From Eledone cirrhosa (Eukaryota), in assembly GCA_964016885.1 (NCBI GenBank), contig OZ024741.1:327360001-327424000 (forward strand): DNA of 64,000 nucleotides, written 5' to 3'. The notes under the pieces are model-generated. The model had not been told where the DNA came from and did no database searches. It saw only the letters and a program-made list of their open reading frames with translations. This document shows positions 424-64,000 of the stretch, one piece after another (the stretch's first letter is position 1; every line of letters starts with the position of its first letter). The position numbers were made by a program, and so were the translations under genes.

Positions 424-429
<6 letters not shown>

Positions 430-1044
430 AATATAGTGAATTTTGCAATACACTCTATGCTTAATTAAAAGCTTTTTGAAGACCTTACGCTATTGATTTA
501 GAGTAGTGACAGTCTCACTTACTTTAAATTTTCAGCCAACAGTGGGAGATAAAGCTGACAGAGCTCTGGTTCGTACTATTTGGTACTTATCAAAGCTAAG
601 TACTCCACCTGTTTGATGAAAATCATGAATGTTTGATTCTTATAGATTTGTAGTAATAATCAGGAACTGATTATACACTATATATACATTCATATGTATA
701 TCGTTATTTCAGACCACCAATTCTAATTTTCAATTTCTGCTTGACCGGCAACCGCTCTGTATAATCAGTTCCTGATTATTACTAGAATTCTATAAGAATC
801 AAACATTCATGATTTTCATCAAACAGGTGGAGTACTTAGCTTTGATAAGTACCAAATAGTACGAAACAGACCTCTGTCAGCTTTATCTCCCCCTGTTTGG
901 TGAAAATTTAAAGTAAGTGAGACTGTCACTACTCTAAAACAATAGCGTAAGTTCCTCAAAATGCTTTTAATTAAGCATACAGTGTATTGCAAAATACACT
1001 ATATTTACATTCATATGTATATCGCTATTTCAGAGTACCAATTC

Positions 1045-1051
<7 letters not shown>
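424..1051. mobile_element. HHR family A fold-back element in (TA)n: minus arm 424-677, plus arm 675-1051 with ~320-nt terminal redundancy
   Basis: 424-677 is the reverse complement of ~758-1010; 675-730 recurs directly at 995-1051; (TA)n on both sides; an HHR motif in each arm. Confidence 0.85.
838..882 (+). ncRNA. Type I hammerhead ribozyme, U3-A8 core variant (family A)
   Basis: AGCT-TTGATAA-GTAC caaata GTAC-GAAA-CAGA cc TCTG-TC-AGCT: stems I, II and III all pair; GUC cleavage triplet at 876-878. Confidence 0.8.
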
Positions 1052-4045: not shown

Positions 4046-4790
<745 letters not shown>

Positions 4791-5342
4791 ACATATATAT
4801 ACAGATGCATACCTATGCCAGCAAATATATAGGTTTTGTCTTATTAACTTTAAGGTTCAATGCATTTGGATGCAGAACAATAATATGAAAGACGTAAAAT
4901 AATAAAATTATAAGTAGATATACTAATTCTTTATAATTATCTCCAAATTATTTTGTCGAGCCAAAATTGGCCAAAACTGCTACTATAGTTCATAGTAACG
5001 GTTCGGCTGCTGTCTTCGTAACAAAACACCCCCTCACTGATTAACCTCGATGTCACGTGATTGATTCTTTTGAATTTGCCACCGACGCCGTAGGCAGTGA
5101 TTTTTTCAATGGCTTGGAACTTAGTCCACACTTTGCTTTTTTCCATCCACTGAATTATTTTTGTATAAGTTCCCTGTGTCCACGCATTGCCTGGAAACTT
5201 AGCTGAGAATAGACTTCCCTGATGACGAAAGGCTTCTCCGTACGTTTCTTCGGAAACTATGTTTATTCCCTTTCAGAAACTAATTAGTTGGAGTGAAATT
5301 CTAGTAAGTAAGTTAATTTTTATAATTTTCTTATTTTACGTC

Positions 5343-5390
<48 letters not shown>

Positions 5391-6286: not shown

Positions 6287-7150
6287 GAAAACAGAGAAAT
6301 TAATGTGAGCAAGAAGCCAACAGTAATTCATACATATAAGTGACTATTACGTCAAGATGGAAAATATTTAACGTAAGATATGGGAAAATAATTCAATCTC
6401 AATTCAAAAAAAGTCAAGACAGAAATTTTATCCACAGATTTTGTGTAATCCAGGGAAAAAACCTATAGAGTCTTAACTCAGAATAAAATTAAGAGTAAAT
6501 ACCTATCCTTCAATTTGGAAAAATCTACACATGCTCTATATAGTCTTAAAAAGACTATTTCACGAAACTTTTCAGTCGGGTTAGTCACGGTTGGAGTCGT
6601 TCATCAGTAGAGCTCAACACGATAACTAAGTAGCACAGCTAAAATATGCCAAAAGGGAATTTAAAAGCAGGCTGGTTTCACGTCGTGTGGAATTAAGATA
6701 ATAAACACACATGGAGAACAGGGCTAGTGAGGTCAGAATGAGACGAATGACTGTTTACAAGAAACAGCAGTCAAAACATTCCGAAAAAAAATCAACAAAA
6801 ATTATGTGGTTCAGCATAAATCAAAATACAGAGAGAGAGAGAGAGATAGAGGGAGAGAGAGAGATAGCGAGATAGATAGATAGATATGTTTCTTTTATTT
6901 GCCACCAGGGCATCAAAAGTGGGACAAGTACAATGGGGGGAGTTTACAAAACAAGGCGTCCTCAATAAGGAGGAGGCAATAACAATATATAAAAATAAAA
7001 TAAAATATAACAAAAAATATAATTTATAACAAAGTCCTCAATAGAGTGGAGGCGCCTTGGGGGGTCGCACACACCCCCGAAAAAAGTGTGCAACCCTTCT
7101 CCTCGGGAGCACAGAGAAGGGGTGCTCCCTTGGTGTTTCATCTTCCTCAC

Positions 7151-10100
7151 CTATAGTCTGATGTAGAGTGAAGGCCCATTCACACGGGCCATTCTCGCCA
7201 CTTTCACCCATCTTTCATAAAAACGGCTGGGGTGCAGCACCTCTCTCTCCATCCTGATCCTTCTTCCGAAATGATATCGGAAGAAACGGACCAGTTGTTG
7301 GCCAGAGAGAAAGGTGTCTGACCTCAGTCCTTTCAGACGCGTCCACCATACAACCTCTTTCGCCATGGATATTACGCACAGAAACACCGCCTCTCCTTCG
7401 TTTTTGAAGAGGGGAGGCGGCTTGATCGTTACAATAGACTCGGTGGTCAACCGGATCGGTCCCACCCTTGACAGCAGTTGTTCGACATAGCCCCACAGAT
7501 CGGCAATGCCCGAGCAGTGTACCAATACGTGTGCAACCGTTTCCTCGTCGCACACGCATCTGGGACAGATCTTTTTCGATGGGTCCCTACCCGGGCGCCC
7601 GTGTCTGTAGAGCCTTTCTCGAACGGGCAGAGCCCTTCTGTAGCATTGCCAGGCCAGGGACCTCTGTAAGTTATCCATGAGTCCCGGGCTGAATGTCCTA
7701 CCGAACAGGTTGGCCAGTTCGTCTTCCTCCATGCCTAGGGCTTCTCCGAGGGTGTCGTCGCACCTGCTAACCACCAGCCCTCTATAGAATGACGAGGTGG
7801 ATTCTCCACTGACAGCCGGGTCCGCCTGCCAGAGAGCCGTGAGCGCCTGGGCACACACGGTGTGCCAGGCGCCCAGTTTTCTCGGTCTTTGCTTGACCCA
7901 GGATTGCAGCTCGGTGAGTGAGACGAGTCTGGGAAAGGTTCGCCTCACAAACGGGGCCCACACCGGTTGACCGGAGAGGAATACCTGAAGGTGCCGTAGC
8001 CTTAATGCGTGTTTACGTATCATTAGCCACGGCATCCCCAGCCCTCCTTTCGAAGGGTATTGACGGCAGATGGATCTCCTCACCATAGGAACCCGCTTCT
8101 TCCAAAGGAATTGGACGAGTGCGCGCTCCATTTTGGCGAGCGTTTCCCTTAGGCAAGGCACAACGGTCAGGTGGTAGTAGATGACGGACGCTATATAAGT
8201 GTTCGCCACCTCCGCCCGACCTTTCAGGGACAGTTTGCACTCGGCCCACTTCTGGGTCAGTGCAAACACCCTGTTCGTCACCTCACCCCAGTTCTTCTCC
8301 ACCTGGAGGTCTGGTCCGAACCAGACCTCGAGCAACTTCACCGGGCCCTCCGTCCAGCGCCCGACGACGCCATCGGAGGGCATCGATCTGCCCCTTCACG
8401 TGCCGAGTTGCAGACCGATCGACTTGTCCCGGTTCAACTTAGCCCCTGTAAACCTTTCGTACTCCTCCAGTAAGGTGCCGATCGTCCCGATTTCCGAGGC
8501 CGTGGACACCATTACTATTACGTCATCGGCGTAGGCTGACACAGCTTTCCGCAATCCCGGTTCCAACGGGATGCCCTGCAACAACTCCAGCTTCCGCAGC
8601 AGTGGCTCTAGAGTCACTACATACAGAAGGGAGGAGAGAGGGCACTCCTGTCGGATGGACCGCGCGATTTCGAACGGCTCCGAGAGGTAGCCGTTCACCT
8701 TGACCCTAGAGCAGATGCGGCTGCTGTGCATGGCATTGATCCAGCTCCTGAAAACGGGTCCGAAGCCTGCCGCCGCTAACACCGCGTCCAGGTAACCATG
8801 GTCGACCCTATCGAATGCCTTAGATTGATCCAAGTTGATCTGGGCCCCACCAAAGCCGGGTTCGTTCCCAACCCTCTCTATGATGTATCGTATGAGGTGG
8901 AGGTTATCGTGGATGGACCTGGACGGGATAGCACATGTCTGCGCATCTCCCACCAGGTTGCCCACGACAACCGCCAACCTCTTTGCTAGCACCTTGGCCA
9001 AAATCTGTAACTCTGTATTTAGCAGAGTTATGGGCCTGAAATTATTTATATCGTATCCCTTGTTCTCGTCCTTCCTCACTAGCGTGACTACGCCCTTGGT
9101 CACAGCACAGGGAATTCTCCCGTTCTGTTGCCAGTTGCAGTAGACCGCCTCGACGAGTTTGGGGAACAAGTCCGGCATAGCTAGATATAGTTCGTATGGA
9201 AGACATTCGAGACCCGGGGATTTGCGTTTGCCGCATTGGCTCAGCACGTCCTCTATCTCAGCGGCTGAAATCGGCTCCTCGCAGGTTTTCGCCTCCCAGG
9301 CCGTCGAAGTATGGACCGAATTCCACGTCCCCAACCGGCCCACCGCCCCTTTCGAACAATCCGGCAAAGTGCTTTTGAAAAGCCTCGCACATCTGCTTAG
9401 GTTCAAGGATGACCCATCCATCCTGGTCTCGCAAAGACCGGATAGTGGATCTGCTCCCTCTTTTGGCTTCTGTCACGCGGGCCCAGCTAACAGCTTTGGT
9501 CCCCTCGTTTCCCAGAGCACGTATTTTGCTTCGGACGATGCAGCCTTCGTGTTTCGCGTCGAAGAACTGGCCCAGGGCCGTTCTCGACGCTAGCCCTCTG
9601 GCCACGTCGCCGCTTCTAATTGCCTCTTCTGCACTATCTACCAACTCCCCTTCCTTCCTATTTCTATTGGAAGCTAACTCCTTACTAAATTCTATAGAGA
9701 CTACTCTAATCTCTCTTTTGAGAGATCCCCACCACCTGCTGTTGACGATGGCGCCCGTCAACCGCTCCTTAACTAAAGTGCTAATCCGGTTCCTGTAAGC
9801 CTTACTTGCCGGTAAGGACAAGTTGAGCTTCCAGTAACCGGGTCCCTGTCTATGAGTTCTGTCAAGGTTGACCATGCAGGTCACTAATTTGTGGTCTGAA
9901 TAGCCAACCATGCGCATTTTTGGACAACTTAAAAAGTCCTTATCTTTAATTCTAACTAAGAACCTATCTAGGTAAGACCTAGATGATCCGCAACGATTTG
10001 CCCAAGTCCAGGTTGGCGCAGTCGGAAAATCTAGTCGATATCTATCGGCCAGGTCAAATCGACCGATTAACCCTTTGAGGCTATTACACCCCTCTCTATC

Positions 10101-10571
10101 GGGACAGGCCCCTACGTAGTCCCAGCGTGCATCTAGGATACCATTCCAGTCCCCCACTAATAGCAAGGAGTGGGACGTCCCTACAAAAGTCTCCAGACGA
10201 TGGAAGAAGTCCGGCCGCATTGATCCGAAAGGGCCGTAGGCGGCTACCAACCTAAACGCTCCGCCTTTACCACTGCCAAGGTCCAGAACCACTAGTCGAC
10301 CCTCCGGGTCCAAATGTACCATCTGTGTTGCGAGACCCAGATGTTTTTGCAGCAGAACGACAACTCCACCCCCACCTCCGGGCTGACAGAGAGATGCGTG
10401 CATCTCAAAGTCATCAAAGGTGGGGGCCAGCTGTCGCACGTTGCTGATCCGGGCCTCGCAAATAACCATCACATCTATACGTTGTGACCTGAGGTCATTT
10501 AGAAGCATTGCTTGCTTCCAAGTTGAGCCCAGGCCACGCGCATTTAAACAGCCTACTCTTAGCATAGCCAT
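7151..10571 (-). pseudogene. LINE ORF2: AP endonuclease, reverse transcriptase, C-terminal zinc knuckle (one frameshift near 9290-9300, one in-frame stop at 8396)
   Basis: APE motifs LNARGL, GDWN, SYLDRF, SDH; RT motifs NFRPITLLN, LDQSKAFDRVDH, RQECPLS, YADD; C-terminal CPRC..EETVAHVLVHC. Confidence 0.93.
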
Positions 10572-10595
10572 GTTGGTGGTGAAGAGAAAAGGCAC

Positions 10596-12236
10596 TTACC
10601 TCTCTGCGTCCCGGGTATCGGGCAGCACAATTTCCATTAGGGTGTGGGATGGGTTGATGGGTGGGGTGGTGGTTTGTGGAAGTGTAGGGGCATCAGTGTG
10701 TTGTGTGGTTGGGGAGCTTGGAGTTGTGTGGGGATTTGGCGAGGGGGTGGGGTAGTTTTTTAGGAGGACGCGGTTAATGGGCCCGACGCAGGGGGGACCC
10801 ACGTCCTCTTTAAAGTTGTTTTTTTAAGTTTTATAGGTGTCCTGTGGGGCCTTAATCATTTTGAGGGGGGGGGGAAATCCCCTGCCTGGGTGAAGTTAGG
10901 CCCTTGTGTTTTTATTAGATTGTTGTTGTACACAATGTTTAACAGTTTTTTGTTTCTTGTGTTTATGTATGTGTATGCATGTTTTTGTTTTTGTGTGGTG
11001 TTTTTTGTTTGCTGTTGTTGTGAGCTCTTTTGTGTTGGTGTCAGTGTTATGTTTTGGGGAGGGGTTGTTTTCATTTGTGTGTCTGAGGTGTGTTTTCTTT
11101 TTTTTCTTTTGATTGTGTGGAAGTGCTCCTCCTCGTCTGACGACGAACTAGGGTCATCTTCGGCGTTGGAGGGGAGGGGTATATTTTCGGGTTGTGTTTG
11201 CGGTGCGGGTGTTTTGGAAATTGTTTTTGTTTTTTGAGTGGACGGGATGGGTTGGACATTGTTTTGTTTTGGTTTGAGCTGTGGTGGTTGTTTTTGTAGT
11301 GGTAGTTGTGGTGATTGTGTTGGATGTGCAGTTGTTGGTGGTGTAGGCAGGATTGGGGTTTTCTTATTAAGTTGGGGACACACAGCCCACAGGTGACATC
11401 TGGTTCCGCAGAGGTAACACGAGGGCCGTCTACCCTCAACGGTAATGTTGATGAAGGTTAGATCATCCAGTATGACGCGTTCAGGGATCTGGGCGATCCT
11501 TTCGGGCCTCATTTGAACTATAAGTTCGAGGCTCGTTCCACTGAACGCGTCACCCAATGCCTTTCCCATGGACACCAGCATGTCATCCTCCAGGTCCAGG
11601 AAACCTGTCAAAACCCACCATATGTCCATAATCGGCAGGATGGTGTGGATTTTTATTTTTTGTGTTCTTCTACCCATGTACGTAGGGTAGAAGGTGCATG
11701 CGGTGGATGTGATTGGTTTGATGGACAGTTTCACTGCTGTGTCCCTGTCCTTCATGAGAATGGATAGACTCCCGTAGAGTCTATTCTTCTGAATGAAGGT
11801 GATGTCCTTCATGACGTCTTTTAAAACCAGCTCTATCTCACTCTGTGATGGTTGAGCTGGTTTTTTACTTTTGTTCGAGATTGTCCTAAACATGACCGTG
11901 TTTTGGAGTCTCTGGCTTTTTAGTTCCGGGGGGGGGGGGGATTGTGAATGAACCATTTTCTCCGTACACTATATATTTTTTCGCATCTGCCAGTAGCTCC
12001 TTCGCTTTGGTTATATCTACTGGCAGATAGTCGAGGGTTTTCCTTGTCGTCTCGGCGAAGGAGAAATTTTGTTTGTTTGTGTTGTTGTTGTCGTTGGTGG
12101 TGTTGTTGTTATCATTGTTGTTGTCACCGTTATTGGTCTTGTTGTTGTTGTTATTGTTATTGGTGTTGTTTTCGTCCGTCGCATTGTTGTTGTTGTTGCT
12201 GTTGCTGGTGCCGTTGGTTCTTTGGGTTGTTGCCAT
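10596..12236 (-). pseudogene. LINE ORF1 (gag-like) split by frameshifts at two poly-C/G runs
   Basis: Segments 12236-~11935, ~11935-~10870 and 10802-10596 abut; CX2CX4HX4C knuckle CYLCGTRCHLWAVC; Asn-rich N-terminus; stop lies just upstream of ORF2. Confidence 0.8.
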
Positions 12237-13241: not shown

Positions 13242-13244
<3 letters not shown>

Positions 13245-13870
13245 GATATTAATAAATGGATACTATATTTATAAAACGATATTTATTTCATTATACATAT
13301 TTCAAGGATACCATGTTAATTTATGTTAACTCAACTTAATATGACATGACTTAAGGTTTTCGTTCTCTCCCCCTCTCTCTATCTCTATATTTCTCTCTCT
13401 TGATTTTTTCTCTCTGTCTGGTGGTTGGATATCTCTCTGTTGTTTTTCTCTGTTTTCTTTTTTTCTTTTTTCTTTCTTCTTTTTTCTTTATTTATCTCTC
13501 CCTTTCTTTTCTCCACTTTTATCTCTCTCGGTTTCTCTCTCTCTCCGTTTTTTTCCGTCTCCTTAACATAACGACTTACAAAAATAAACAAACCACTATC
13601 CTGATGTCTTCCAAAAGTAACGGTCGCATTTTGAAAGGGTACGTCAATGTTTATTTATAAAACTGGTATATATTGTATTTTGTCTGATGAAGGCATACCA
13701 TAATTTAACATGGTATCCTTGAAATATGTATAATGAATTAAATATGGTTTTATAAATATAGTTTCCATTAATAATATCGTATATTTACTCCAAATACATG
13801 TCGAGTGCTTTATATCAGTTATAAAAATATTTGCTTGTTGTATCCCAACAATTTAAATAGAACTTTTGCA
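13242..13870. mobile_element. HHR family D element with short inverted arm
   Basis: 13243-13325 is the reverse complement of 13699-13780; plus-strand HHR CTGATGA(13684)-AGGcATACCAT..ATGGTATCCTT-GAAATATGTATA; TA flanks. Confidence 0.8.
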
Positions 13871-18509: not shown

Positions 18510-18510
18510 A

Positions 18511-18680
18511 TTTTGGAAACTCTGCTTCGTAGAATTGAGACGTATCCAAGGACCTTGCGATTTCAGAGTCAGGTTCGATCATTACATCGATCGTGCTAAG
18601 AGCTGGTCGCCAGAGAAACGATTGTAATATATATAATAAATGTTATTCGTTGCAACACTAATTCTCCGTTTCTTGTGTGA
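18511..18680 (+). repeat. Dispersed family F insert in (TA)n; second copy on minus at 49773-49944
   Basis: The two copies align over ~170 bp; contains GGTTCGATC and an HHR-like 3' half GCTGG tcg CCAGA-GAAACGATTGTA. Confidence 0.7.
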
Positions 18681-18706
18681 TATATATATATATATATATA
18701 TATATG

Positions 18707-19200
18707 AGCTGTCAACACATATATAAATATATATGCAAAAGTTCTATTTAAATTGTTGGGATACAACAAGCAAATATTTTTATAACTGATATAAAGCACT
18801 CAACAAATATTTGGAGTAAACATACGATATTAACAAATGGAAACTATATTTATAAAACCATATTTATTTTATTATACATATTTCAAGGACACCACGTTAA
18901 AATATGGTGTGCTTTCATCAGACAAAATACAATATAGATCAGTTTTATAAATAAATATTGACATACCCTTAAAAAATGCAACCATTACTGTTGGAAGCTC
19001 CCGGATAGATGACTATCCGGGAGCTTCCAACAGTAATGGTTGCATTTTTTAAGGGTATGTCAATATTTATTTATAAAACTGATCTATATTGTATTTTGTC
19101 TGATGAAAGCACACCATATTTTAACGTGGTGTCCTTGAAATATGTATAATAAAATAAATATGGTTTTATAAATATAGTTTCTGTTTGTTAATATCGTATA
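18707..19200. mobile_element. HHR family D near-perfect fold-back (arms 18822-19008 and 19013-19199, 4-nt loop)
   Basis: ~187-bp inverted repeat centred on CCGGATAG-atga-CTATCCGG; left arm extends a further ~115 bp; TA flanks. Confidence 0.9.
19084..19163 (+). ncRNA. Type I hammerhead ribozyme (family D); mirror copy on minus at 18858-18937
   Basis: ~15-bp stem I with one bulge (CTATATTgTATTTTGT / ATAAAATAAATATGG), CTGATGA, stem II AAGcACACCAT / GTGGTGTcCTT, GAAA, quasi-palindromic stem III, AUA triplet. Confidence 0.85.
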
Positions 19201-19974: not shown

Positions 19975-21229
19975 ACTGAACGATAGTACCGATTGTCCAG
20001 CCAAAACGCTCACCAACATGGAGCGCGTGCTCTTCCAATTCCTTTGGAAGAAACGTGCTCCTTTGGTAAGAAGATCCATCTGCTGCCAACACCCTTCAAA
20101 CGGAGGGCTGGGGTGCCGTGGCTGACGATTCGCAAACACCCGCTCAGACTGCGGCACCTCCACGTATTTCTCACCAGACAACCGGTGTGGGCCCCATTCG
20201 TGAGGCGAGCCTTCCCACGACTCATCTCGCTGACCCCGCTGCAGACCTGGCTCAAGCAAAGACCGAGGAAAATGGGCGACTGGCATATCGAATTTGTTCA
20301 GGCGCTCACAGTCCTCTGGCAAACGGACCCGGCGATCAGTGGAGACTCCACTTCGACATTCTATAGAGGGTTGGTCCGCAGCATGTGCGACGACACGCCC
20401 GGAGAAACTCTAGGCGTAGAGGAGGACGAACTGGCCAGCCTGTTCGGTAGGACCTTAAGCCCGGGACCAATCGACAACTTCCAAAAGTCCCTGGCCTGAC
20501 AGTGCTACTGAGGAGCTCTACCGGTTCGAGACAAGATCTACAGACACGGGCGCCCGGGTAGGGACCCTTCGAAAAAGATCTGTCCGAGATGCGTGCGCGA
20601 CGAGGAAATCGTCGCGCACGCATTTGTACACCGCCTGGGGGTTACTGACCTGTGGGGCTATGTAGAACGACTATTGTTGCGGGTAGGACAAATCCAGTTG
20701 ACCACCGAGTCCATTGTCATGATCAAACCGCCACCCTCCTTCAAAAACGAGGGAGAGGCGGTTTTCCTATGTGTTATGGCTATGGTGAAAGAGATTATAT
20801 GGTGGACGAGGTTAAAAGAGCTGAGGTCAGACACCTTTCTTTCCAGCGAGCAACTGATTCGTTTTTTCAAATATCATTTTGGAAGAAGAATCTGGATGGA
20901 GAGAGAGGTGCTGTATCCCAGCAAATTTTATAAAAGGTGGGTGAATGTGGCAAAGCTGACCCGAGTGGTTGGGCCTTCTCTCTATATAAGCCTGTAGGTT
21001 GAGGAAAAAGAGGAAGATAGGAAGGGAGTACTCACTCTTGGTGCTCCTGGAGATGAGGGTTGTACATTTTTTCGGGGTGTGTACAACCCCTGTGTAACAC
21101 CTCCCACCTATTGGGGATTTCAATTGTTATTTGCTATTGTATTAATAGTTTCATTTTCATATAACTGTATGTAAACTCCCCACTTGGATTTGTCCCCTTC
21201 TTTTATGCCCTTGTGGCTAATAAAGAAAT
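19975..21229 (+). mobile_element. 5'-truncated, decayed copy of the same Tx1-like LINE family
   Basis: Translations match the 7151-8383 ORF (PVWAPFVRR, KPPPSFKNEGEAVFLCV); 3' AATAAAGAAA; candidate 10-bp TSD TTATCTATAT at 19965-19974 and 21230-21239. Confidence 0.9.
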
Positions 21230-21423
21230 TTATCTATATCACCCTCATCTCTGCTCCTCCAACTTATTACTAATATTGCTTTCATTCTATTTATATTATT
21301 TGTTCATCTATTTATAAATACTAGCGCACTGCATCATGAACACAGAGCAGTATTGGTCGGATATCGACTGTAATTAAAATCGAGTGACGTGGCTAATAAA
21401 ATAAATTTATCTATCTATCTATG

Positions 21424-22175
21424 AGTTGGAATAGGATGAAACGAAATTTCATTTCTCACTCTTAGTACGGCACTTACTTAAATGTAAGTATGTATGTATA
21501 CGTACATACATATATATATACAGACGTACAGTAGCATGCATATATATATATATACATATATATATATACACATACAGGTACACATATATATATATGTACG
21601 TATCAGTTTAGCGGACGTTTATTATAACGCCCGCTTTGTCCGTTTGTAAACAAACGGACAGCCTGATTTATGCCGTACGGTGTTAAGGCAACCACGTCAC
21701 CTTTTTGATCATCACTGACACAGGAACGATGTACTAGTTTCAAGCTTCTTAGCTATCATCAGCACCGTATACCCTTCTGCCAGATGGTTGAACGTTCGAA
21801 AGTATATACTTTCCTTATGAAAATTAACGGCTCAGCAGCCTAATTTGCATATCGAGTGAGTTCAGTCGGCCAGGCGCCCCTAAAACGATAAGTTGGAATA
21901 GGATGAAACGAAATTTCATTTCTCACTCTTAGTACGGCACTTACTTCGAGCGTTCAACCATCTGGCAGAAGGGTATACGGTGCTGATGATAGCTAAGAAG
22001 CTTGAAACTAGTACATCGTTCCTGTGTCAGTGTTGAAAAAAAGGTGACGTGGTTGCCTTAACACCGTACGGCATAAATCAGGCTGTCCGTTTGTTTACAA
22101 ACAGACTAAGCGGGTGTTATAATAAACGTCCGCTAAACTGATACGTACATATATATATGTGTATCTGTATGTATA

Positions 22176-25174: not shown

Positions 25175-25230
25175 ACTGCCTGATCAGGTCATAGCCATTC
25201 AATGGCTATCATCGAAATATATATAGCAGT
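25175..25230 (+). ncRNA. Hammerhead motif with G8C core change inside a TA-flanked insert (24885-25276)
   Basis: ACTGC-CTGATCA-GGTcATAGCCATT c AATGGCTATcATC-GAAATATATATA-GCAGT; all three stems pair. Confidence 0.7.
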
Positions 25231-25543: not shown

Positions 25544-25545
<2 letters not shown>

Positions 25546-25762
25546 CGAAGGAAATGTGGTAAGGAACCAGGTGGACCATAACGCACCAAAGTACTCAATA
25601 CTTAGGGTAGTAGAGTGGGTAATAGGAACAAGTAAGACCCCGACGGCTGAGCTCAAGCCGTTTCGACTGCTAATTCTGGACTGAATGACAGAATAAATTT
25701 TCATTCAGTCCAGAATTAGCCGTCGAAACGGCTTGAGCTCAGGTGTCGGGGTCTTACTTGTT

Positions 25763-25766
<4 letters not shown>
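25544..25766. mobile_element. Family E fold-back insert in (TA)n
   Basis: 66-bp arms 25623-25688 and 25701-25766; homologues at 39788-39983, 49626-49700 and 53768-53971. Confidence 0.85.
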
Positions 25767-25818
<52 letters not shown>

Positions 25819-25823
<5 letters not shown>

Positions 25824-25962
25824 TAAAATAACAGATTAAAGTTTAAGCAAAGAATCGCTTCTTTCACTCTCCACGGGATCTTCTGAAACTAAAAATGTCA
25901 ATCTGTGAACGCAGAAGTAAATATTTCAAAAGACGTTGCAACCGAAGGAAAACAGGAAGACG
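25819..25962. repeat. Dispersed TA-adjacent repeat family I (also 40521-40662, and inverted at 6158-6212)
   Basis: TTTATTAAAATAACAGATTAAAGTTTAAGCAAAGAATCGCT is shared; all three copies end at the same AATAAA next to (TA)n. Confidence 0.75.
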
Positions 25963-26037
25963 ACACTTTGGTTCGTGGAAACGTTCCCTGGCAAAGAACG
26001 GAAAACAACGAAGATAATACGTCATTATTTTGTGCGG

Positions 26038-26200
26038 TTTTATCGACCCCGTAAGGATGAAAGGCGAAGTTAATCTCGACGAGGTCTGAGTTCAAATCCC
26101 GTCGAGGTTAACTTTGCCTTTCATCCTTACGGGGTCGATAAAATAAAGTACCAGTAATGTACTGGTTAATTGCTGGCTTTGTGCCAAAAGTATAAACAAT
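26038..26200 (+). mobile_element. SINE with inverted duplication of its core
   Basis: 26038-26081 is the reverse complement of 26100-26143 (CGTCGAGGTTAACTTTGCCTTTCATCCTTACGGGGTCGATAAAA). Confidence 0.75.
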
Positions 26201-27455
26201 TATTTGGTGCGGTGAAAACAATTACACGCAAAGACGAAAACCACGTTTATGGTATAATGAAGTCGTAGACTAATATTCTATTAGGTAGTTTGTGGAGACG
26301 TTCTCTGTGAATGAACGGAAAAAACGAAGATAATACGTCAATATGTGGCACAGTGAGAACAATTACACGCAAAGACAAAACCACGTAAATGGTATACCTA
26401 AAGTCGTAGACGAAAATTATATTTAGGAAACCGAATGATTCTCGGCTTCAGAGTTGAGGATGGATTAAATTTGAAACTGGTTAGACAATTACTCATCAGA
26501 GTACTTGATACTTGGAGAAGTAGAATATGCTTATATTATAAAGCGTTACGGTTAGTGTCAGCTCTTGCCATTTCAACAGCTATTTCCAGACGGTATTATG
26601 CATGCTTCTCTATCTAACCATATGATTATGCAGTAATTGCATGTTAAACAAGTGGAATATTTTACATTTTTTTACATTTCCATTACCGGATTGTAGCCGT
26701 TTACGGTTGTACTACTGAACCGTTGTATCCGAAGTTAGGCTGCTTCGTTTACGACCATACCAGGTAATTAAAAAAACAGGCTACAATCATTTTACACTAT
26801 CCCCACTTTTCTAAACAGCCCCATTCACCTGCTACTATGTGTGTATGTATGCACCTAATGTAGAATTTCATATACATTATTATACTCCCCCGTAGCTAGG
26901 AGAGTTCACGCGCGCACGCTCACTCACATATCCACACACTCACATTCAAACATAAAAACACACCGTTACGAGCGCGCACACACATGCGTATACACACGTA
27001 CGTACACGCATATTCCCATGTTCATCTTACATAAATATTTTGATTACTTCTCACCCTAAAACTTTCAAACGCGTAAGATACCCATTGACCGCAACACACC
27101 TAGATGGCCGATTGAATAGAGACAGGTGCTTTTTCTGCCGCGTAGTCCCCTCTCCCATCTTCCCCCGGTTCCTTCCTCTTATCACTCTTTACTTTATATT
27201 TATCTATTCATCTTATATTTCTAACTCTGTCTTCTGATAAGGACTACTGACTGAAACGTTATTTCAAGCGTTAAACTAATATATTTTTTCGATGTACTGT
27301 GTCGTTTATTTTGTTATTTCTGTTTATATTTTACATATATATGTGTATTTATATATGTATGTACGTATTATGCATGTATGTATGTATTCATGTCTGTCTG
27401 TATGCCTCTATGTATGTATGTATTCGTGTATGTACATGTATGCGTTTGCATTATG

Positions 27456-28589: not shown

Positions 28590-29098
28590 TAGGAAGCCTA
28601 TATTACCATGTCAAGCACAAGCAAGGGGGACAACCGTCTATGCCTTTTAGGCTTAACTGGCCTTCGTCAGGACTGTCCCCCTTGCTTCTGCTGGACATCA
28701 CCAGAGGGCGTTAGCCCCCCGGTGTTTGGATAGCTACGGCTTCCTAAAACTGTATTTCTTTGGAGATACGAAATATTTATACATATTGTATAAAACTATG
28801 CTTGAAGCGAAATCCTATTTCTTTTTTATTATAAGTTGAGCCAACTAATGCAGCTTCATATGCAAATGCGATTAATCACCTCATTTACGCAGACGAGAAA
28901 AGTATATATTCTCAGCTGTCTTCTAGTCCAGCAGTCGCAAGCGGCGGGAGAGACCGTCCTGGCTAAGGCCAGTTAAGCCTGAAATGCATAGACGGTTGTC
29001 ACCCTTGCTTCTGCTGGACATCACCAGAGGGTGTTAGCCCCCCGGTGTTTGCATAGCTACGGCTTCCTAGAACTGTATTTATTTGGAGATACGAAGTA
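28590..29098. mobile_element. HHR family J: short minus arm plus ~1.3 monomers of 323 nt
   Basis: 28674-28775 is repeated at 28997-29098; 28607-28673 is inverted relative to 28956-29021; HHR remnants in both arms. Confidence 0.82.
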
Positions 29099-32399: not shown

Positions 32400-34230
32400 T
32401 TTTTACTATTATTATTATTAGTTACTAGCTTTGAAATAGTGGAACAAGAATCTATGGTAATGTGGACACGTGTAGAAGATCTCTGATTTCCTATTTAGTA
32501 GGCTAAGGTTAGAGTGAATAATATTTTTAGACTCGAGAATGCAAAGGTTACGAAATTTGTTAGGTCGTCTATATGAAGGGGCCTTAGCTATCACTTCCCA
32601 TTTTAAGGTATATGGTATGTTACTTGATTTTAATGAGTGTATGTATGTGGATAGTAAGGTTACGTTGCTAAGTTTAGGGTTTCTGAACGAATGAAGGTGT
32701 CAAATATATCTGGTCTTAAAGCTATTCGATGTTGAGCCTATATACTTTCGAGATATGATTAACAGTTACAGTACGGGAATAGACAATGTCTTTAATTAGG
32801 CAGTTCTTATTTAATAGACATGTCTTGTTAGGCCTACAATTACAATTGTTTTGTTTACTAGTATACTGGTTAACGGGGTATGCGTTTGAGTGGTTGTTTC
32901 TGTTTCTACTTCTAGTATTATGATTATGGTGAGTATTATTACTATTGGTATTATTAGTGTGACTTGCTGTATGGTTTTGTACTGTGTTATTGTTCAGATT
33001 ATTTCTATGCTGGACATTATTACTTTGGTGTAATTTGAAGAACTCTTTAATCTTTCTATTGTTGGTGTTGGCTATATGATCTGCTATGTTAGGTGTGGTG
33101 GAGTAGGATATGTTAATTGTGTTTTTGTTAAATAGATTGTGGTATTTATGGTTAGTTGGGAAGTTTTTGTCTAGAATAGAGAAGAAAGCTTTAGGTATGT
33201 TTGTTGATACATTTAAGTTGCGCGGAGGGTTAAAGAATGTGCTACTTCTCCTTCTATTCTTCTTATGCTTTCTTATTCATACTACTGTTTAGTGTGGTGT
33301 TAGGTTCCTTCTTATCTATGTTTTTCTTTCTGTGGTGTTTCTTAGGGTTATTGCTGTGGTGTAATTTAACTTTTTTATGGCGCCCTTTGTATAGGAGTCA
33401 GGATTTTCAATACTATGATCATATTTACTTTTATTCATGGCCATGGTGTGTGAAATTATATTAGGTTGTCTATGGGTGGTTGAAGATTTAGGTTTAAATT
33501 TAAATTTATCTCTAAGGCCGGAACGGACTAAGGCTTCATTATAGTATTGGTAGTTACGATTAAATGTATTCTCGTTGTAAGAAAGGCTAGAGATTCTATT
33601 AAATACCCCTTTAAAGATTAAGGTCAGTACAGATTTGAAGTGGTTAGAGTTGGTATTAACATAGAAAGGCTTTTCATTAGGTTTATTATAAGGTGTGTAT
33701 TTTTTAGAGTCTAAGTAGAGAGTGACGTCCAGGAAGTTAACATTTTCGCTGTTTTTATCTAAAGTGATACCTAAGTTATAGTTTTTAAATATTTTATGTA
33801 ATTGTTTTCTAGTTCTTTCTATATTTAACGTTTTATAGTCTAAGAGGAAGAGTGCGTCGTCTCGGTAGAGGCCACCGTTGAGGTAAGGTAGGTTCTTGTG
33901 TATTTCGATTAAGAGAAATAGACCTACTAAGTCGGTTACCTGTGCCGAGACACTAGATCCCATGGTGATATCAAAGTTGTTCGGTGTATTCTTGCGGGTC
34001 CATAGTTGGTCTTCAAATTTAATTATTGTTTTCCTGGCCGCAAGGATTATATCTACCTGGGATCTATTGAGTTCAACATTGTTCATCGCCATTATTAATG
34101 CTTTATTTAGGAGGATAGGCGAAATGGAAGTGTAGTAGGAGTTTATATCAAATTGCATGAATTTCTTATTATTATCCTCATTAATACCACTAAACCATTC
34201 GATTACTTCACTAGTGTTTCCAAGAGGTTA
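32400..34230 (-). pseudogene. Penelope-like element RT plus GIY-YIG endonuclease, 5'-truncated and frameshifted
   Basis: QFDINSYYTSI, FDITMGS, GGLYRDDAL, NFLDVTL and KPNEKPFYVNTNSNH in ORF 33316-34158; downstream frames FFNPP..KAFFSILDKNFP..ISYSTTPNI, CNC, YIGST, NLCILE. Confidence 0.9.
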
Positions 34231-39235: not shown

Positions 39236-39622
39236 TGGTATTAGTTTTGGTGCTCTGAAATAGCGATGAATACATGAATGTATATATAGTATATTTGGCA
39301 ATATACTGTATGTTTAATTAAAAATATTTTGAAGACTATTCACTGTGAGTTTAAAAGTCGTGACTTAGTCAATAACTTATTCTTGGCAAAAGCAAAGGAG
39401 AGTAATTGACAGTCCTGTTTCCCGCTCATTACTATTCACCCCTTCGCTTCTGCTGGATTCTTATAGAATTCCATTCATATTTAAGAGCTGATTAATCAGA
39501 GCGGTTACCGGTTCAGCAAAAATTTGGTATTAGTATTAGTGCTGGGAAATATAGATGTATACATGAATGTATGTATAGTATATTTGACAATACTAATACC
39601 TAATTCTTGCAGTATATTGCCA
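39236..39622 (-). mobile_element. Diverged relative of family A with ~290-nt terminal redundancy
   Basis: 39236-39304 recurs at 39525-39593; shares CTGATTA..CAGAGCGGTT.CCGGT with A; HHR 3' half GAAACAGGACTGTC on minus with the 5' core deleted; short inverted tail at 39610-39622. Confidence 0.65.
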
Positions 39623-39787: not shown

Positions 39788-39979
39788 AACAAAGGAATTT
39801 TGGCAAGGAACCAGATGGACCATAACGCACCAGAGTACTCAATGTTTAGGGTAGTAGAGTGGGAAATAGGTAAAAGTATGACCTCGACGGCAGAGCTCAA
39901 GCCGTTTCGACGGCTATTTCTGGAGTCCAGAAACAGCCGTCGAAACGGCTTGAACTCTGTCATAGGGGTTATACTTTTT

Positions 39980-39983
<4 letters not shown>
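39788..39983. mobile_element. Family E fold-back copy
   Basis: Arms centred on CTGGA-g-TCCAG (39925); same outer ends as 25544-25766. Confidence 0.82.
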
Positions 39984-40028
<45 letters not shown>

Positions 40029-40659
40029 CTTTCAGCGACATTCTTTGAAATCTTTGATCGTTTTGTAAATCTTGCTTTCATTCAAATCAGACATTTATAT
40101 TTGGCTTTAAGACCGTTCTATGTATACACTTGGAAGATTCCAATAAGTGTATCTGTTTCAAAAGAAATATTGTTATTTTTTAAGGAGTTCTTCTTTCTGA
40201 TATATTCGGCTTTGATAGATAGAAAACAAAATTGAGACAACATTAAAAAGTACAATCGAATTTCAAAACGTTCCGTAAATATTATATAAAGGAAAAGAAA
40301 ACATTGATTCGAAACTTGAAAAAAGGATGAAAAAAGTTATGTCTACGTATCGAATATTAAAATACGTAATAACTGAATGGTCTTTGGAAAAATCATATGT
40401 GCGTGTGTGATCGTATATATGTGTGTGTGTGCATGAGTGTGGTAATGTACATATATATATTGGATTTTAGTATTCACATTTATTATCATTACTATATATA
40501 AATATATATATATATATATATTTATTAAAATAACAGATTAAAGTTTAAGCAAAGAATCGCTGCTTTCACCCTTAACGGGATCTTCTGAAACTAACAAAGT
40601 CAATCTGTAAACGCAGAACTGGATATTTCAAAAAACGTTGCAACCGGAGGAAGACAGGA

Positions 40660-40696
<37 letters not shown>

Positions 40697-41183: not shown

Positions 41184-46988
<5,805 letters not shown>

Positions 46989-49625: not shown

Positions 49626-49965
49626 AACGAAGGAAATGTGGTAAGGAACCAGGTGGACCATAACGCACCAAAGTACTCAATACTTAGGGTAGTAGAGTGG
49701 TGTCGGATGCTTAAAGCGTCCGTATGCGGTAGGCCGTTTGAGCACTCGATCCTCTTACAGAGCAGAGTATAATATCACATAAGAAACGGAGAACCAGTGG
49801 TGTGACGAGTTAAAATTTATTAGACATATTACAATCGTTTCTCTGGCGACCAGCTCGAGGCGCGATCGATATAGGGATCGAACCTGACTCTGAAGTTGCA
49901 AGCTCCCCAGATACGTCTCGATTCTTCGGAACGGAGTTTCCAAATGCTGGAAACTCTGCTTCGTG
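49626..49965 (-). mobile_element. Mosaic insert made of an E end, a G-like segment and F, with a short fold-back
   Basis: 49626-49700 = E; 49727-49770 resembles 31497-31541; 49773-49944 = F reversed; GAGTTTCCA-aatgc-TGGAAACTC fold-back. Confidence 0.7.
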
Positions 49966-52157: not shown

Positions 52158-52269
<112 letters not shown>

Positions 52270-52345
52270 TATACATATATATATACATTTATATATATAT
52301 ATACATATATATACATATATATATAAATATATATATATATATATG

Positions 52346-52414
<69 letters not shown>

Positions 52415-52418
<4 letters not shown>

Positions 52419-52674
52419 GAATGTATATATAGTGTATTTTGCAATACACTGTATGCTTAATTAAAAGCATTTCAAAGACTTTATGTTATAGTTTTAGAGT
52501 AGTGACAGTCTCACTTACTTTAAATTTTCAGCAAACAGGTGGAGATAAAGCTGACAGAGCTATGTATCGTACTGATTGGTACTTATCAAAGCCAAGTACC
52601 CCACCTGTTTTCTGAAAATCATGAATGTTTGGTTCTTATAGAATTTATAGTAATAATCAGGAACTGATTATACA
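52415..52674 (-). mobile_element. HHR family A arm
   Basis: Matches 424-677; minus-strand HHR TTGATAA-GTAC..GTAC-GATAC (A14 mutated). Confidence 0.85.
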
Positions 52675-53712
52675 GTGTGTTTCTAAATATATTGTTAATA
52701 ACTCCCTCTGGTCGAGCAATCTTTGAAGTGTGGGGACAACTGGAAAGCTTCCATTACTCATACTTCTAGCCTTCTTCACCACCTCTTCTGCGGCCTCGAT
52801 ATGAATACCCCCTCCGCCTCCGTGGTATTTTCTTCGTGGTTATAAGTGGCTTAGCTCTGTTTCTCGACCGTTATATCGCGTGACTATCCCCCCCTCCGCC
52901 TTTTGGGATTCTTTCTCACGTCGTGTAGACGCGTTCTTGAGACTAGTAAAATGAGGTATCCTCTTAATAAGTCGGCAGACCTCGCAGGGACTCTATATCT
53001 TTATGATATATTGTTTTTGTTTATGCCACGAAACTACGTAGTCGAGGAATTTAGGAGCAGTTTAGGTATGATACATTTTATTACTAATTATATCTAAATG
53101 TTTCTTCTCTCTTCATAATGTATTTTTAACTCTGATACTGGTTCAGTCTAGTTCAACTGAATTGGTCTGTCCCGGTCATTCATTGAGCAACATCGGTGAA
53201 GTTGGCACCCTTAACTCACAGTTGGGTGCGGATGCATTCATGTATATATGTGTGTGTCCGCATGTATCTGTGTGTTTCTAAATATATTGTTAATAACTCC
53301 CTCTGGTCGAGCAATCTTTGAAGTGTGGGGACAACTGGAAAGCTTCCATTACTCATACTTCTAGCCTTCTTCACCACCTCTTCTGCGGCCTCGATATGAA
53401 TACCCCCTCCGCCTCCGTGGTATTTTCTTCGTGGTTATAAGAGGCTTAGCTCTGTTTCTCGACCGTTATATCGCGTGACTATCTCCCCCTCCGCCTTTTG
53501 GGATTCTTTCTCACGTCGTGTAGACGGGTTCTTGAGACTAGTAAAATGAGGTATCCTCTTGATAAGTCGGCAGACCTCGCAGGGACTCTATATCTTTATG
53601 ATATATTGTTTTTGTTTATGCCACGAAACTACGTAGTCGAGGAATTTAGGAGCAGTTTAGGTATGATACATTTTATTACAAATTATATCTAAATGTTTCT
53701 TCTCTCTTCATA

Positions 53713-53718
<6 letters not shown>
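52674..53718 (+). mobile_element. HHR family K: ~1.75 tandem monomers of 595 nt (retrozyme-like)
   Basis: 52674-53122 is repeated at 53270-53717 with few substitutions; one HHR per monomer. Confidence 0.85.
53554..53643 (+). ncRNA. Type I hammerhead ribozyme, U3-A8 core, long stem II (family K); upstream copy at 52959-53048 has G5A
   Basis: TCCTC-TTGATAA-GTcGGCAGAC...GTTTaTGCCAC-GAAACTACGTAGTC-GAGGA; palindromic stem III ACTACGTAGT, GUC triplet. Confidence 0.8.
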
Positions 53719-53767
<49 letters not shown>

Positions 53768-53772
<5 letters not shown>

Positions 53773-53970
53773 ACGAGTAGGAGCCCGACGGCTAATCTCA
53801 AGCCGTCTCGGCGGCTAGTTCTGGACTAAATTAGTCCAGAATTAGCCGTCGAAACGGCTTGAGCTCAGCCGTCGTGGTCCTACTCGTTCCTATTACCCAC
53901 TCTACTACCCTAAGTATTGAGTACATTGGTGCGTTATGGTCCATCTGGTTCCTTACCACATTTCCTTCGT

Positions 53971-53971
<1 letters not shown>
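53768..53971. mobile_element. Family E fold-back copy (opposite orientation)
   Basis: Arms centred on CTGGACTAA-a-TTAGTCCAG (53830); same outer ends as the other E copies. Confidence 0.82.
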
Positions 53972-54047
<76 letters not shown>

Positions 54048-63488: not shown

Positions 63489-64000
63489 ATCATGGATTAC
63501 TTTACTGATTACAGAAGAGAGTGATCATGAATTACTTTACTGATTACAGAAGAGAGTGATCATGGATTACTTTACTGATTACAGATGAGAGTGATCATGG
63601 ATTACTTTACTGATTACAGAAGAGAGTGATCATGGATTACTTTACTGATTACAGAAGAGAGTGACCATGGATTACTTTACTGATTACAGAAGAGAGTGAT
63701 CATGGATTACTTTACTGATTACAGAAGAGAGTGATCATGGATTACTTTACTGATTACAGAAGAGAGTGATCATGGATTACTTTACTGATTACAGATGAGA
63801 GTGATCATGGATTACTTTACTGATTACAGAAGAGAGTGATCATGGATTACTTTACTGATTACAGAAGAGAGTGATCGTGGATTACTTTACTGATTACAGA
63901 TGAGAGTGATCATGGATTACTTTACTGATTACAGATGAGAGTGATCATGGATTACTTTACTGATTACAGATGAGAGTGATCATGGATTACTTTACTGATT
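63489..64000. repeat. 35-bp tandem minisatellite, >14 copies, runs off the window
   Basis: Unit GTGATCATGGATTACTTTACTGATTACAGA(A/T)GAGA, head-to-tail with no spacers. Confidence 0.95.

What the first reader, a model, noticed from the sequence alone, without database searches (positions are those of the whole stretch)
52415..53718. Chimeric two-arm insertion: left arm family A, right arm family K
Seen: a minus-strand A arm is fused without spacer (CTGATTATACAG|TGTGTTTC) to plus-strand K monomers, with (TA)n outside both ends. This is the usual divergent geometry but with unrelated arms. Inference: the two arms are copied from two separate RNA molecules, so the inverted repeats come from two priming events rather than DNA fold-back, and different families share one machinery.
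Basis: partly seen in the sequence, partly recalled or inferred. Interest (0 to 1): 0.78.

Follow-up and report, generated by a model that had tools for sequence, protein, structure and literature searches.

The report
Two Penelope-type retro-arms fused head-to-head
Two unrelated small ribozyme-carrying jumping elements sit fused head to head inside a TA-repeat stretch, but one arm carries about three times more mutations than the other, so they likely arrived one after the other rather than being copied together from two RNAs in a single event.

Summary
A minus-strand arm of family A (52416-52675) joins 1.75 plus-strand monomers of family K (52675-53715; period 595) through one shared G, with (TA)n outside. 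A and K do not align better than shuffles. Both carry a type I hammerhead motif with the U3-A8 core known from Penelope-like elements (PLEs), which fixes the 5'-to-5' geometry. The window holds nine same-family inverted insertions and two decayed Hydra-type PLEs. The one-event, two-RNA reading is not shown. Against the family majority in one public run, the A arm differs at 10 of 260 positions and K1 at 8 of 595 (Fisher p 0.03-0.04); K1 and K2 differ at 5 of 446. Neither arm carries the one-sided tail seen in 8 of 9 same-family pairs, lone arms occur, and another spacerless join of two families looks tandem. Best reading: a younger K insertion beside an older A arm (0.55). Co-insertion stays open (0.25): a PLE extends both strands in vitro, and two-RNA twin priming is proposed for L1. 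No genome or ortholog was available, so the decisive tests were not run.

The parts
52164..52415 (.). left (TA)n target tract, interrupted
52416..52675 (-). family A arm, 260 bp, 3' end at the left (TA)n; carries only about 5 nt of the 42-nt A tail
   Evidence: 18 of 253 columns differ from both other window copies
52549..52593 (-). type I hammerhead motif, U3-A8 core, palindromic loop 3; GAAA box changed to GATA at 52566, predicted inactive
   Evidence: the other letter is 99.9% of depth in X1
52650..52673 (-). short hairpin at the inner end of the A arm; the A- arm at 427-677 ends within 0-6 nt of the same place
   Evidence: predicted fold of the A monomer
52675..52675 (.). junction: one G shared by both arms, no spacer
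52675..53269 (+). family K monomer 1 (595 bp); its start lies 7 nt inside the 3' foot of a long predicted hairpin of the K monomer
52959..53048 (+). hammerhead motif of K1, core damaged by a private change at 52966
53270..53715 (+). family K monomer 2 (446 bp), ending at the inner of two K 3' ends, that is without the 164-bp tail
   Evidence: loose ends with (TA)n at 53123 (11 contigs) and 53287 (7 contigs) in X1
53554..53643 (+). intact type I hammerhead motif of K2: 5-bp stem I, U3-A8 core, long stem II, palindromic loop 3
   Evidence: three-way fold in the centroid structure, z -1.5
53716..53769 (.). right (TA)27 target tract
427..1050 (.). comparison locus: same-family A-/A+ inverted insertion, tail on the right arm, 5-nt overlap at its centre
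43724..46120 (+). decayed, 5'-truncated Hydra-type PLE whose 3' end is family C with a hammerhead; candidate class of enzyme donor
32424..34218 (-). second decayed Hydra-type PLE reading frame (RT, CxCx5C linker, GIY-YIG-like end)

Best explanation
The locus is a spacerless 5'-to-5' fusion of two unrelated hammerhead-bearing repeat families inside (TA)n, and it likely formed in two steps: an older A arm first, then a younger K insertion into the TA tract beside it. Shown: anatomy, orientation, unrelatedness, hammerhead motifs, unequal divergence. Inferred: a PLE protein acting in trans nicked the (TA)n and copied A RNA from the left target end, stopping at the A hairpin (the arm stayed alone or had an A+ partner). 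Later a PLE protein nicked the TA tract to the right and copied a multimeric or circular K RNA for 1.75 rounds until it entered the long K hairpin. The free K end was then joined to the inner end of the A arm through a 1-nt overlap, with loss of whatever lay between (a few TA units or an A+ arm).
For: Age gap: at four cut-offs for the other letter's share in X1 (50, 75, 90, 98%), A has 10, 9, 8, 7 of 260 and K1 has 8, 7, 5, 4 of 595 (Fisher p 0.034, 0.030, 0.028, 0.041, from the 40 rows shown; 33 rows hidden). K1 and K2 differ at 5 of 446, 0.56% per copy, which predicts 1.5 changes in 260 bp (upper bound 3.4; P of 9 or more 0.008). One A change hits the ribozyme core. Tail: 8 of 9 same-family pairs carry it on exactly one arm; here neither arm does. 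Lone arms between two TA tracts exist at 18510-18679 and 40522-40661. A second spacerless join of two families, at 49700/49701, appears tandem, and pairs a piece 100% identical to another copy (74 of 74) with one only 83% identical to its other copy.
Against: The divergent geometry with no TA left between the arms is exactly what co-insertion predicts, and needs an extra loss under this reading. The age test is modest: a comparison using contigs of run X6 gives 9 of 200 against 10 of 577, p 0.058. An A RNA from an already diverged copy would give the same gap; K1 and K2 share a letter at 52768 that is rare in X1, which shows that rare letters can come from the source. X1 holds only 0.62 of the sampled words, so it need not be the window's own individual or species. 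One of nine same-family pairs (21596-22148) also lacks tail asymmetry, and hidden loose ends (205) could hold other K 3' ends. The nine pairs were chosen by me and three are one family.
Confidence: 0.55

Rival explanations
1. One event, two RNAs: a dimeric PLE protein cut both strands of (TA)n, copied an A RNA from the left end and a K RNA from the right end, and the two cDNA ends were joined.
For: Geometry fits without extra steps. The anole PLE protein cleaves and extends both strands in vitro and is predicted to be a dimer (PMC11167929). Twin priming on two different RNAs is proposed for antisense L1 chimeras (PMC13174262) and a like case is described at L1 breakpoints (10.1101/2024.12.14.628481). 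A and K share the U3-A8 core and the target. Both inner ends lie at predicted hairpins, as expected for two stalled cDNAs. Filler copied from the flank at the centre of 21596-22148 fits joining of two free ends.
Against: Arms differ about threefold in divergence; the A arm has a damaged ribozyme core; neither arm has the tail; nine same-family pairs against one clear mixed divergent pair suggests both arms usually come from one family; 5 of 9 centres are near-symmetric. In a rotifer, no cross-mobilisation between PLE classes was seen and each family relies on its own terminal repeat (PMC3846280).
Confidence: 0.25
2. Later deletion: two complete neighbours, A-/A+ and K-/K+, lost everything between their two centres, leaving A- fused to K+.
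For: The A arm ends where the A- arm of 427-1050 ends. Loss of the inner arms would remove both tails and leave two tail-less outer ends. Different families often stand in neighbouring TA tracts. It allows unequal ages.
Against: The shared A end is explained more simply by the hairpin there. It needs two breaks at two centres and has only 1 nt of overlap.
Confidence: 0.12
3. Assembly artefact: two repeat copies joined by the assembler.
For: No listed contig of 4 runs spans 52675.
Against: The junction has no long shared sequence to mislead an assembler; long TA tracts around it are resolved; X1 need not be the source, and 3609 pieces were not shown.
Confidence: 0.04

Closest known systems
Insertion unit of endonuclease-bearing Penelope-like elements: partial tandem, adjacent inverted 5'-truncated copy, one-sided tail (Craig et al. 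2021, PMC8557442; Arkhipova et al. 2013, PMC3846280)
   Same: Partial tandem on one side, inverted truncated arm directly at its 5' end, (TA)n target that hides a target duplication, hammerhead near the 3' end.
   Different: The inverted arm is from another family; no tail on either end; no reading frame in either arm.
Animal non-LTR retrozymes (Cervera and de la Pena 2020, PMC7229834; Li et al. 2026, 10.64898/2026.07.22.740005)
   Same: Non-coding tandem monomers with a type I hammerhead in each; proposed to be non-autonomous PLE derivatives.
   Different: K monomer is 590-595 nt against the 170-400 nt reported; K1's core is damaged; expression, cleavage and circles are untested; the passages read do not describe head-to-head pairs.
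Hydra clade of PLEs (PMC8557442, section 11)
   Same: Short C-terminal-endonuclease PLEs that insert into (TA)n, with a CxCx5C linker, RWK and DKT motifs and hammerheads; two decayed window elements show the linker and their relatives show RWR/RWK and DKT.
   Different: No sequence link from A or K to a Hydra element was found; only family C is tied to one.
Antisense L1 chimeras by twin priming on two RNAs (PMC13174262; 10.1101/2024.12.14.628481)
   Same: Two unrelated cDNAs in opposite orientation at one site; told from sequential insertion by orthologs.
   Different: L1 machinery, with target duplications and ortholog support; here neither is available and both arms end at their own 3' initiation region.

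Membership tests
PLE-type insertion unit | partial tandem forming pseudo-LTRs | tested here: met
   K is 1.75 monomers, period 595
PLE-type insertion unit | inverted 5'-truncated copy of the same element directly at the 5' end | tested here: not met
   inverted arm present but unrelated to K; met at nine other places in the window
PLE-type insertion unit | tail on one end (often, not always) | tested here: not met
   A arm has about 5 of 42 nt; K ends at the inner of two 3' ends
PLE-type insertion unit | hammerhead motif in the terminal repeat | tested here: met
   own descriptor scans (7 sites against 0-1 in 20 shuffles); U3-A8 core and palindromic loop 3 are described for PLE hammerheads (PMC4209133). 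Rfam listed no hammerhead among 9 matches at E up to 10
PLE-type insertion unit | RT plus GIY-YIG reading frame | tested here: not met
   longest open frame in K 80 aa, in A 35 aa; non-autonomous
non-LTR retrozyme | tandem non-coding monomers each with a type I hammerhead | tested here: met
   K1 and K2 each hold the motif, K1's damaged at one core base; A+ at 673-1050 is a partial tandem of 321 bp
non-LTR retrozyme | monomer of about 170-400 nt | tested here: not met
   A 321 nt fits; K 590-595 nt does not
non-LTR retrozyme | expressed as linear and circular RNA | tested here: inconclusive
   no RNA holder listed; a 620-nt self-closing contig in X4 fits a 590-nt circle or tandem DNA alike
non-LTR retrozyme | self-cleavage | not testable with these tools
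   needs an in vitro assay
two-RNA twin-primed chimera | opposite orientation, joined 5' to 5' | tested here: met
two-RNA twin-primed chimera | both parts present or absent together in orthologs and alleles | not testable with these tools
   no genome held; no relatives in metagenome, viral or prokaryote collections
two-RNA twin-primed chimera | one target duplication around both parts | not testable with these tools
   both flanks are (TA)n
two-RNA twin-primed chimera | equal age of the two parts | tested here: not met
   3.8% against 1.3% from family majority, p 0.03-0.04; weaker comparison p 0.058; a diverged source copy is not excluded
Hydra-clade PLE (window elements at 32.4-34.2 kb and 43.7-46.1 kb, not A or K) | CxCx5C linker before a C-terminal GIY-YIG-like domain; RWK and DKT motifs; (TA)n target | tested here: met
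   linker read in both window frames; RWR/RWK and DKT in relatives P0001, P0004, which align to both; Pfam GIY-YIG only weak, 1 of 5 relatives at E 0.012; no tree built

The most novel reading that the evidence does not exclude
A Penelope-like protein dimer can load two different non-autonomous RNAs and copy one from each cut strand in a single insertion. Mixed-family pairs would then be natural markers proving that PLE inverted ends come from two primings, and that unrelated retrozyme families share one enzyme.
Probability: 0.25. Interest if true: 0.62.

Novelty: new member of a known kind. Interest (0 to 1): 0.3.

Why it matters
How PLEs make their tandem and inverted ends is named as an open question in PMC8557442. 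Same-family pairs cannot tell fold-back from two primings; mixed-family pairs could, because fold-back cannot make an unrelated arm. A genome this rich in short hammerhead arms would allow a count. This single locus does not deliver that proof, since its arms look unequal in age, and two-RNA twin priming is already proposed for L1. If the two-step reading is right, it is an ordinary pile-up of (TA)n-seeking elements. Families A and K are still usable new retrozyme-like families: U3-A8 core, and a K monomer larger than those reported.

Tried and rejected
Whole genome: none held, so no genome-wide junction count and no empty-site test. Exact-pattern scans for A or K found 0 matches in viral contigs, metagenome contigs and prokaryote genomes. 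Rfam: whole-window scan was swamped by simple-repeat microRNA matches (150 of 269 rows shown); the locus scan gave no hammerhead. The repeat finder was swamped by (TA)n. No RNA holder listed. K-like words in runs of 17 coded organisms were not taken as horizontal transfer: of the 4 runs laid, X4 gave one K contig at depth 8, X6 one K contig at depth 105 plus scattered A pieces, and raw reads X22 (about 1 in 100 read) showed neither family; the K contigs carry the X1 majority letters, which fits trace carry-over. Homology of A and K rejected. A DNA-transposon (MITE) reading rejected: no shared terminal inverted repeats, tandem monomers and hammerheads present. A possible second mixed divergent pair at 4270-4790 was set aside: its plus piece is a 37-bp, 97% inverted copy of DNA about 120 bp away, more like local filler. 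The stretch 25820-26430 could not be resolved. TA-tract purity was considered as a clock and dropped as uninformative. Searches for a described mixed-family PLE pair (Creative Commons PMC and bioRxiv only) listed none by title or abstract start; earlier scan notes had none either. No supplements were read; those of PMC8557442 may hold related families.

Full report
Observation. The window is AT-rich and crowded with (TA)n tracts. Self-BLAST with simple repeats masked shows that 52417-52675 matches 757-1014 in reverse (91%) and 426-677 directly (90%), and that 52675-53120 repeats at 53270-53715 (98.9%). The layout is (TA)n 52164-52415, A arm 52416-52675, K1 52675-53269, K2 53270-53715, (TA)27 53716-53769. 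The G at 52675 fits both arms, so the overlap is 1 nt and there is no spacer. A and K do not align better than shuffles in four comparisons.

What the arms are. Descriptor scans found a type I hammerhead motif on the minus strand of the A arm and on the plus strand of both K monomers. All have the U3-A8 core and a palindromic loop 3; both features are described for PLE hammerheads (PMC4209133, passages). The A arm's GAAA box reads GATA and K1's core has a private change; K2's motif is intact and folds as a three-way junction in the centroid structure, with a weak z of -1.5. Rfam listed no hammerhead at the locus, so the call rests on my descriptors. The K monomer as a whole is strongly structured (z -5.7, 0 of 100 shuffles). 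Neither arm has a long frame. The motifs fix the geometry: sense strands run outward and the 3' ends touch (TA)n. In run X1 both families are high-copy, and K shows two 3' ends followed by (TA)n, at 53123 (11 contigs) and 53287 (7 contigs), 164 bp apart. This matches the two start sites that bound the PLE tail in vitro (PMC11167929, parts 1-2 of 4 read).

Surroundings. I picked nine TA-flanked same-family inverted pairs, leaving out 4270-5346, 26038-26143 and 28608-29095 as unresolved; three of the nine are one family. Eight have an unpaired 42-157-bp tail on exactly one outer end, and five have centres of 12 nt or less. This is the PLE insertion unit of PMC8557442 (passages and sections 11, 15) and PMC3846280 (parts 1-3 of 5). 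Two decayed PLE frames lie at 32424-34218 (-) and from 43816 (+); 11 relatives were found among 2037 candidates. Both window frames show a CxCx5C linker and two relatives show RWR/RWK and DKT, the marks of the (TA)n-targeting Hydra clade; no tree was built. The second element ends in family C with its hammerhead, which ties one short family to an enzyme donor class. No such tie was found for A or K.

Test of the one-event reading. If both arms were made at once they should have aged equally. Using the 40 rows shown for the laid runs (33 hidden), the window letter departs from the X1 majority at 10 of 260 positions in A and 8 of 595 in K1; stricter cut-offs give 9 and 7, 8 and 5, 7 and 4 (Fisher p 0.028-0.041). 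K1 and K2 differ at 5 of 446, which predicts about 1.5 changes in the A arm. Against the two other window copies the A arm has 18 own differences in 253 columns; five of these are places where its letter is the X1 majority, so that count overstates its age. A comparison with X6 contigs is weaker, 9 of 200 against 10 of 577, p 0.058. The gap could also come from an A RNA made from an already diverged copy: K1 and K2 share a letter at 52768 that is rare in X1. X1 holds 0.62 of the sampled words and need not be the source.

Further signs. Neither arm has its tail: A stops about 5 nt into a 42-nt tail and K stops at the inner end. Lone arms with (TA)n on both sides exist at 18510-18679 and 40522-40661, so an A arm could have stood alone. 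At 49700/49701 a 74-bp piece identical to another copy is fused without TA to a piece only 83% like its other copy, apparently in tandem (orientation of the second family is tentative). With one divergent and one tandem case the window shows no orientation bias. Both inner ends at the finding lie at predicted hairpins: K1 starts 7 nt inside the 3' foot of a long stem, and the A arm ends with a short hairpin where the A- arm at 427-677 also ends. This explains where each cDNA stopped and fits either reading.

Fold-back or two primings. The window does not settle the general claim. Near-symmetric centres at different positions fit fold-back or trimming of the tip. The 59-bp, 98% copy of flanking DNA (21421-21479) at the centre of 21596-22148 fits joining of two free ends. 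The 5-nt overlap at the centre of 427-1050 fits both.

Mechanism. Most likely (0.55): A was inserted first by PLE-driven priming in (TA)n; K was later primed in the TA tract to its right, copied for 1.75 rounds from a multimeric or circular RNA, and joined to the inner end of A with loss of the DNA between. These steps are inferred. Rivals: one event with two RNAs (0.25), later deletion between two complete inverted elements (0.12), assembly error (0.04; no listed contig spans the junction).

Comparison with what is known. The parts work like non-autonomous PLE derivatives or non-LTR retrozymes (PMC7229834, abstract and one passage; 10.64898/2026.07.22.740005, part 1 of 5); K exceeds the reported monomer size, and expression and cleavage are untested. 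Extension of both strands by a PLE is published. Twin priming on two different RNAs is proposed for L1 chimeras and is told from sequential insertion by orthologs (PMC13174262, passages and section 10; 10.1101/2024.12.14.628481, passages). My searches listed no paper whose title or abstract start describes a mixed-family PLE pair; the library lacks most subscription journals and I read no supplements. Earlier notes of this scan on other genomes reached the same PLE reading for same-family pairs; they are unchecked and not independent support.

Verdict. A real, well-defined fusion of two PLE-type retro-arms, most likely a two-step pile-up in a shared target. The genome-wide count and the ortholog test could not be run (searches found no related loci). 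Interest 0.3; the co-insertion case would merit about 0.6 if shown.

Noticed in passing
window 21596-22148: Inverted pair whose centre holds a 59-bp, 98% copy of flanking DNA from 21421-21479: locally templated filler between two arms.
   Followed up: partly
window 43724-46120: Decayed Hydra-type PLE ending in family C with a hammerhead; family C also forms inverted pairs at 13244-13869 and 18706-19196, the latter a near-perfect 372-bp palindrome with a 4-nt centre.
   Followed up: partly
window 32424-34218: Second decayed Hydra-type PLE frame on the minus strand, 35-47% identical to 680-800-aa relatives.
   Followed up: partly
window 49627-49944: Spacerless join of a young 74-bp tail piece (family of 25545-25764) to an older unrelated piece (family of 18510-18679), apparently tandem; sequential insertion or template jump.
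   Followed up: partly
window 4270-5346: Compound TA-flanked block: a minus-strand arm with a minimal hammerhead (4354-4393), a 37-bp inverted copy of nearby DNA, and a further divergent pair whose arms share only 27 bp well.
   Followed up: partly
window 25545-25764, 39789-39981, 53770-53973: Three very short hairpin insertions of one family (arms 56-64 bp, tail 80-83 bp) whose centres differ from copy to copy; one stands directly right of the finding.
   Followed up: partly
window 39237-39592: Distant A relative (68%), lone minus-strand partial tandem with tail; its hammerhead region is lost.
   Followed up: partly
window 41272-43748: Near-exact tandem duplication of about 1190 bp (629 bp at 99.5%, 300 bp at 100%) spanning TA tracts; recent duplication or assembly duplicate.
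   Followed up: no
window 7061-12000 and 20004-21090: Decayed non-LTR retrotransposon with RT (PF00078) and an upstream frame on the minus strand, and an 81% identical fragment on the plus strand.
   Followed up: no
window 52695-53286 in run X4: One 620-nt self-closing contig equal to a 590-nt K monomer, depth 8; K-like words occur in runs of 17 coded organisms, probably as trace carry-over.
   Followed up: partly
window 6533-6613 and 25175-25230: Two further hammerhead-like motifs with no second copy in the window.
   Followed up: no
window 63489-64000: 35-bp satellite, 14.6 copies, 97% matches, running off the window end.
   Followed up: no
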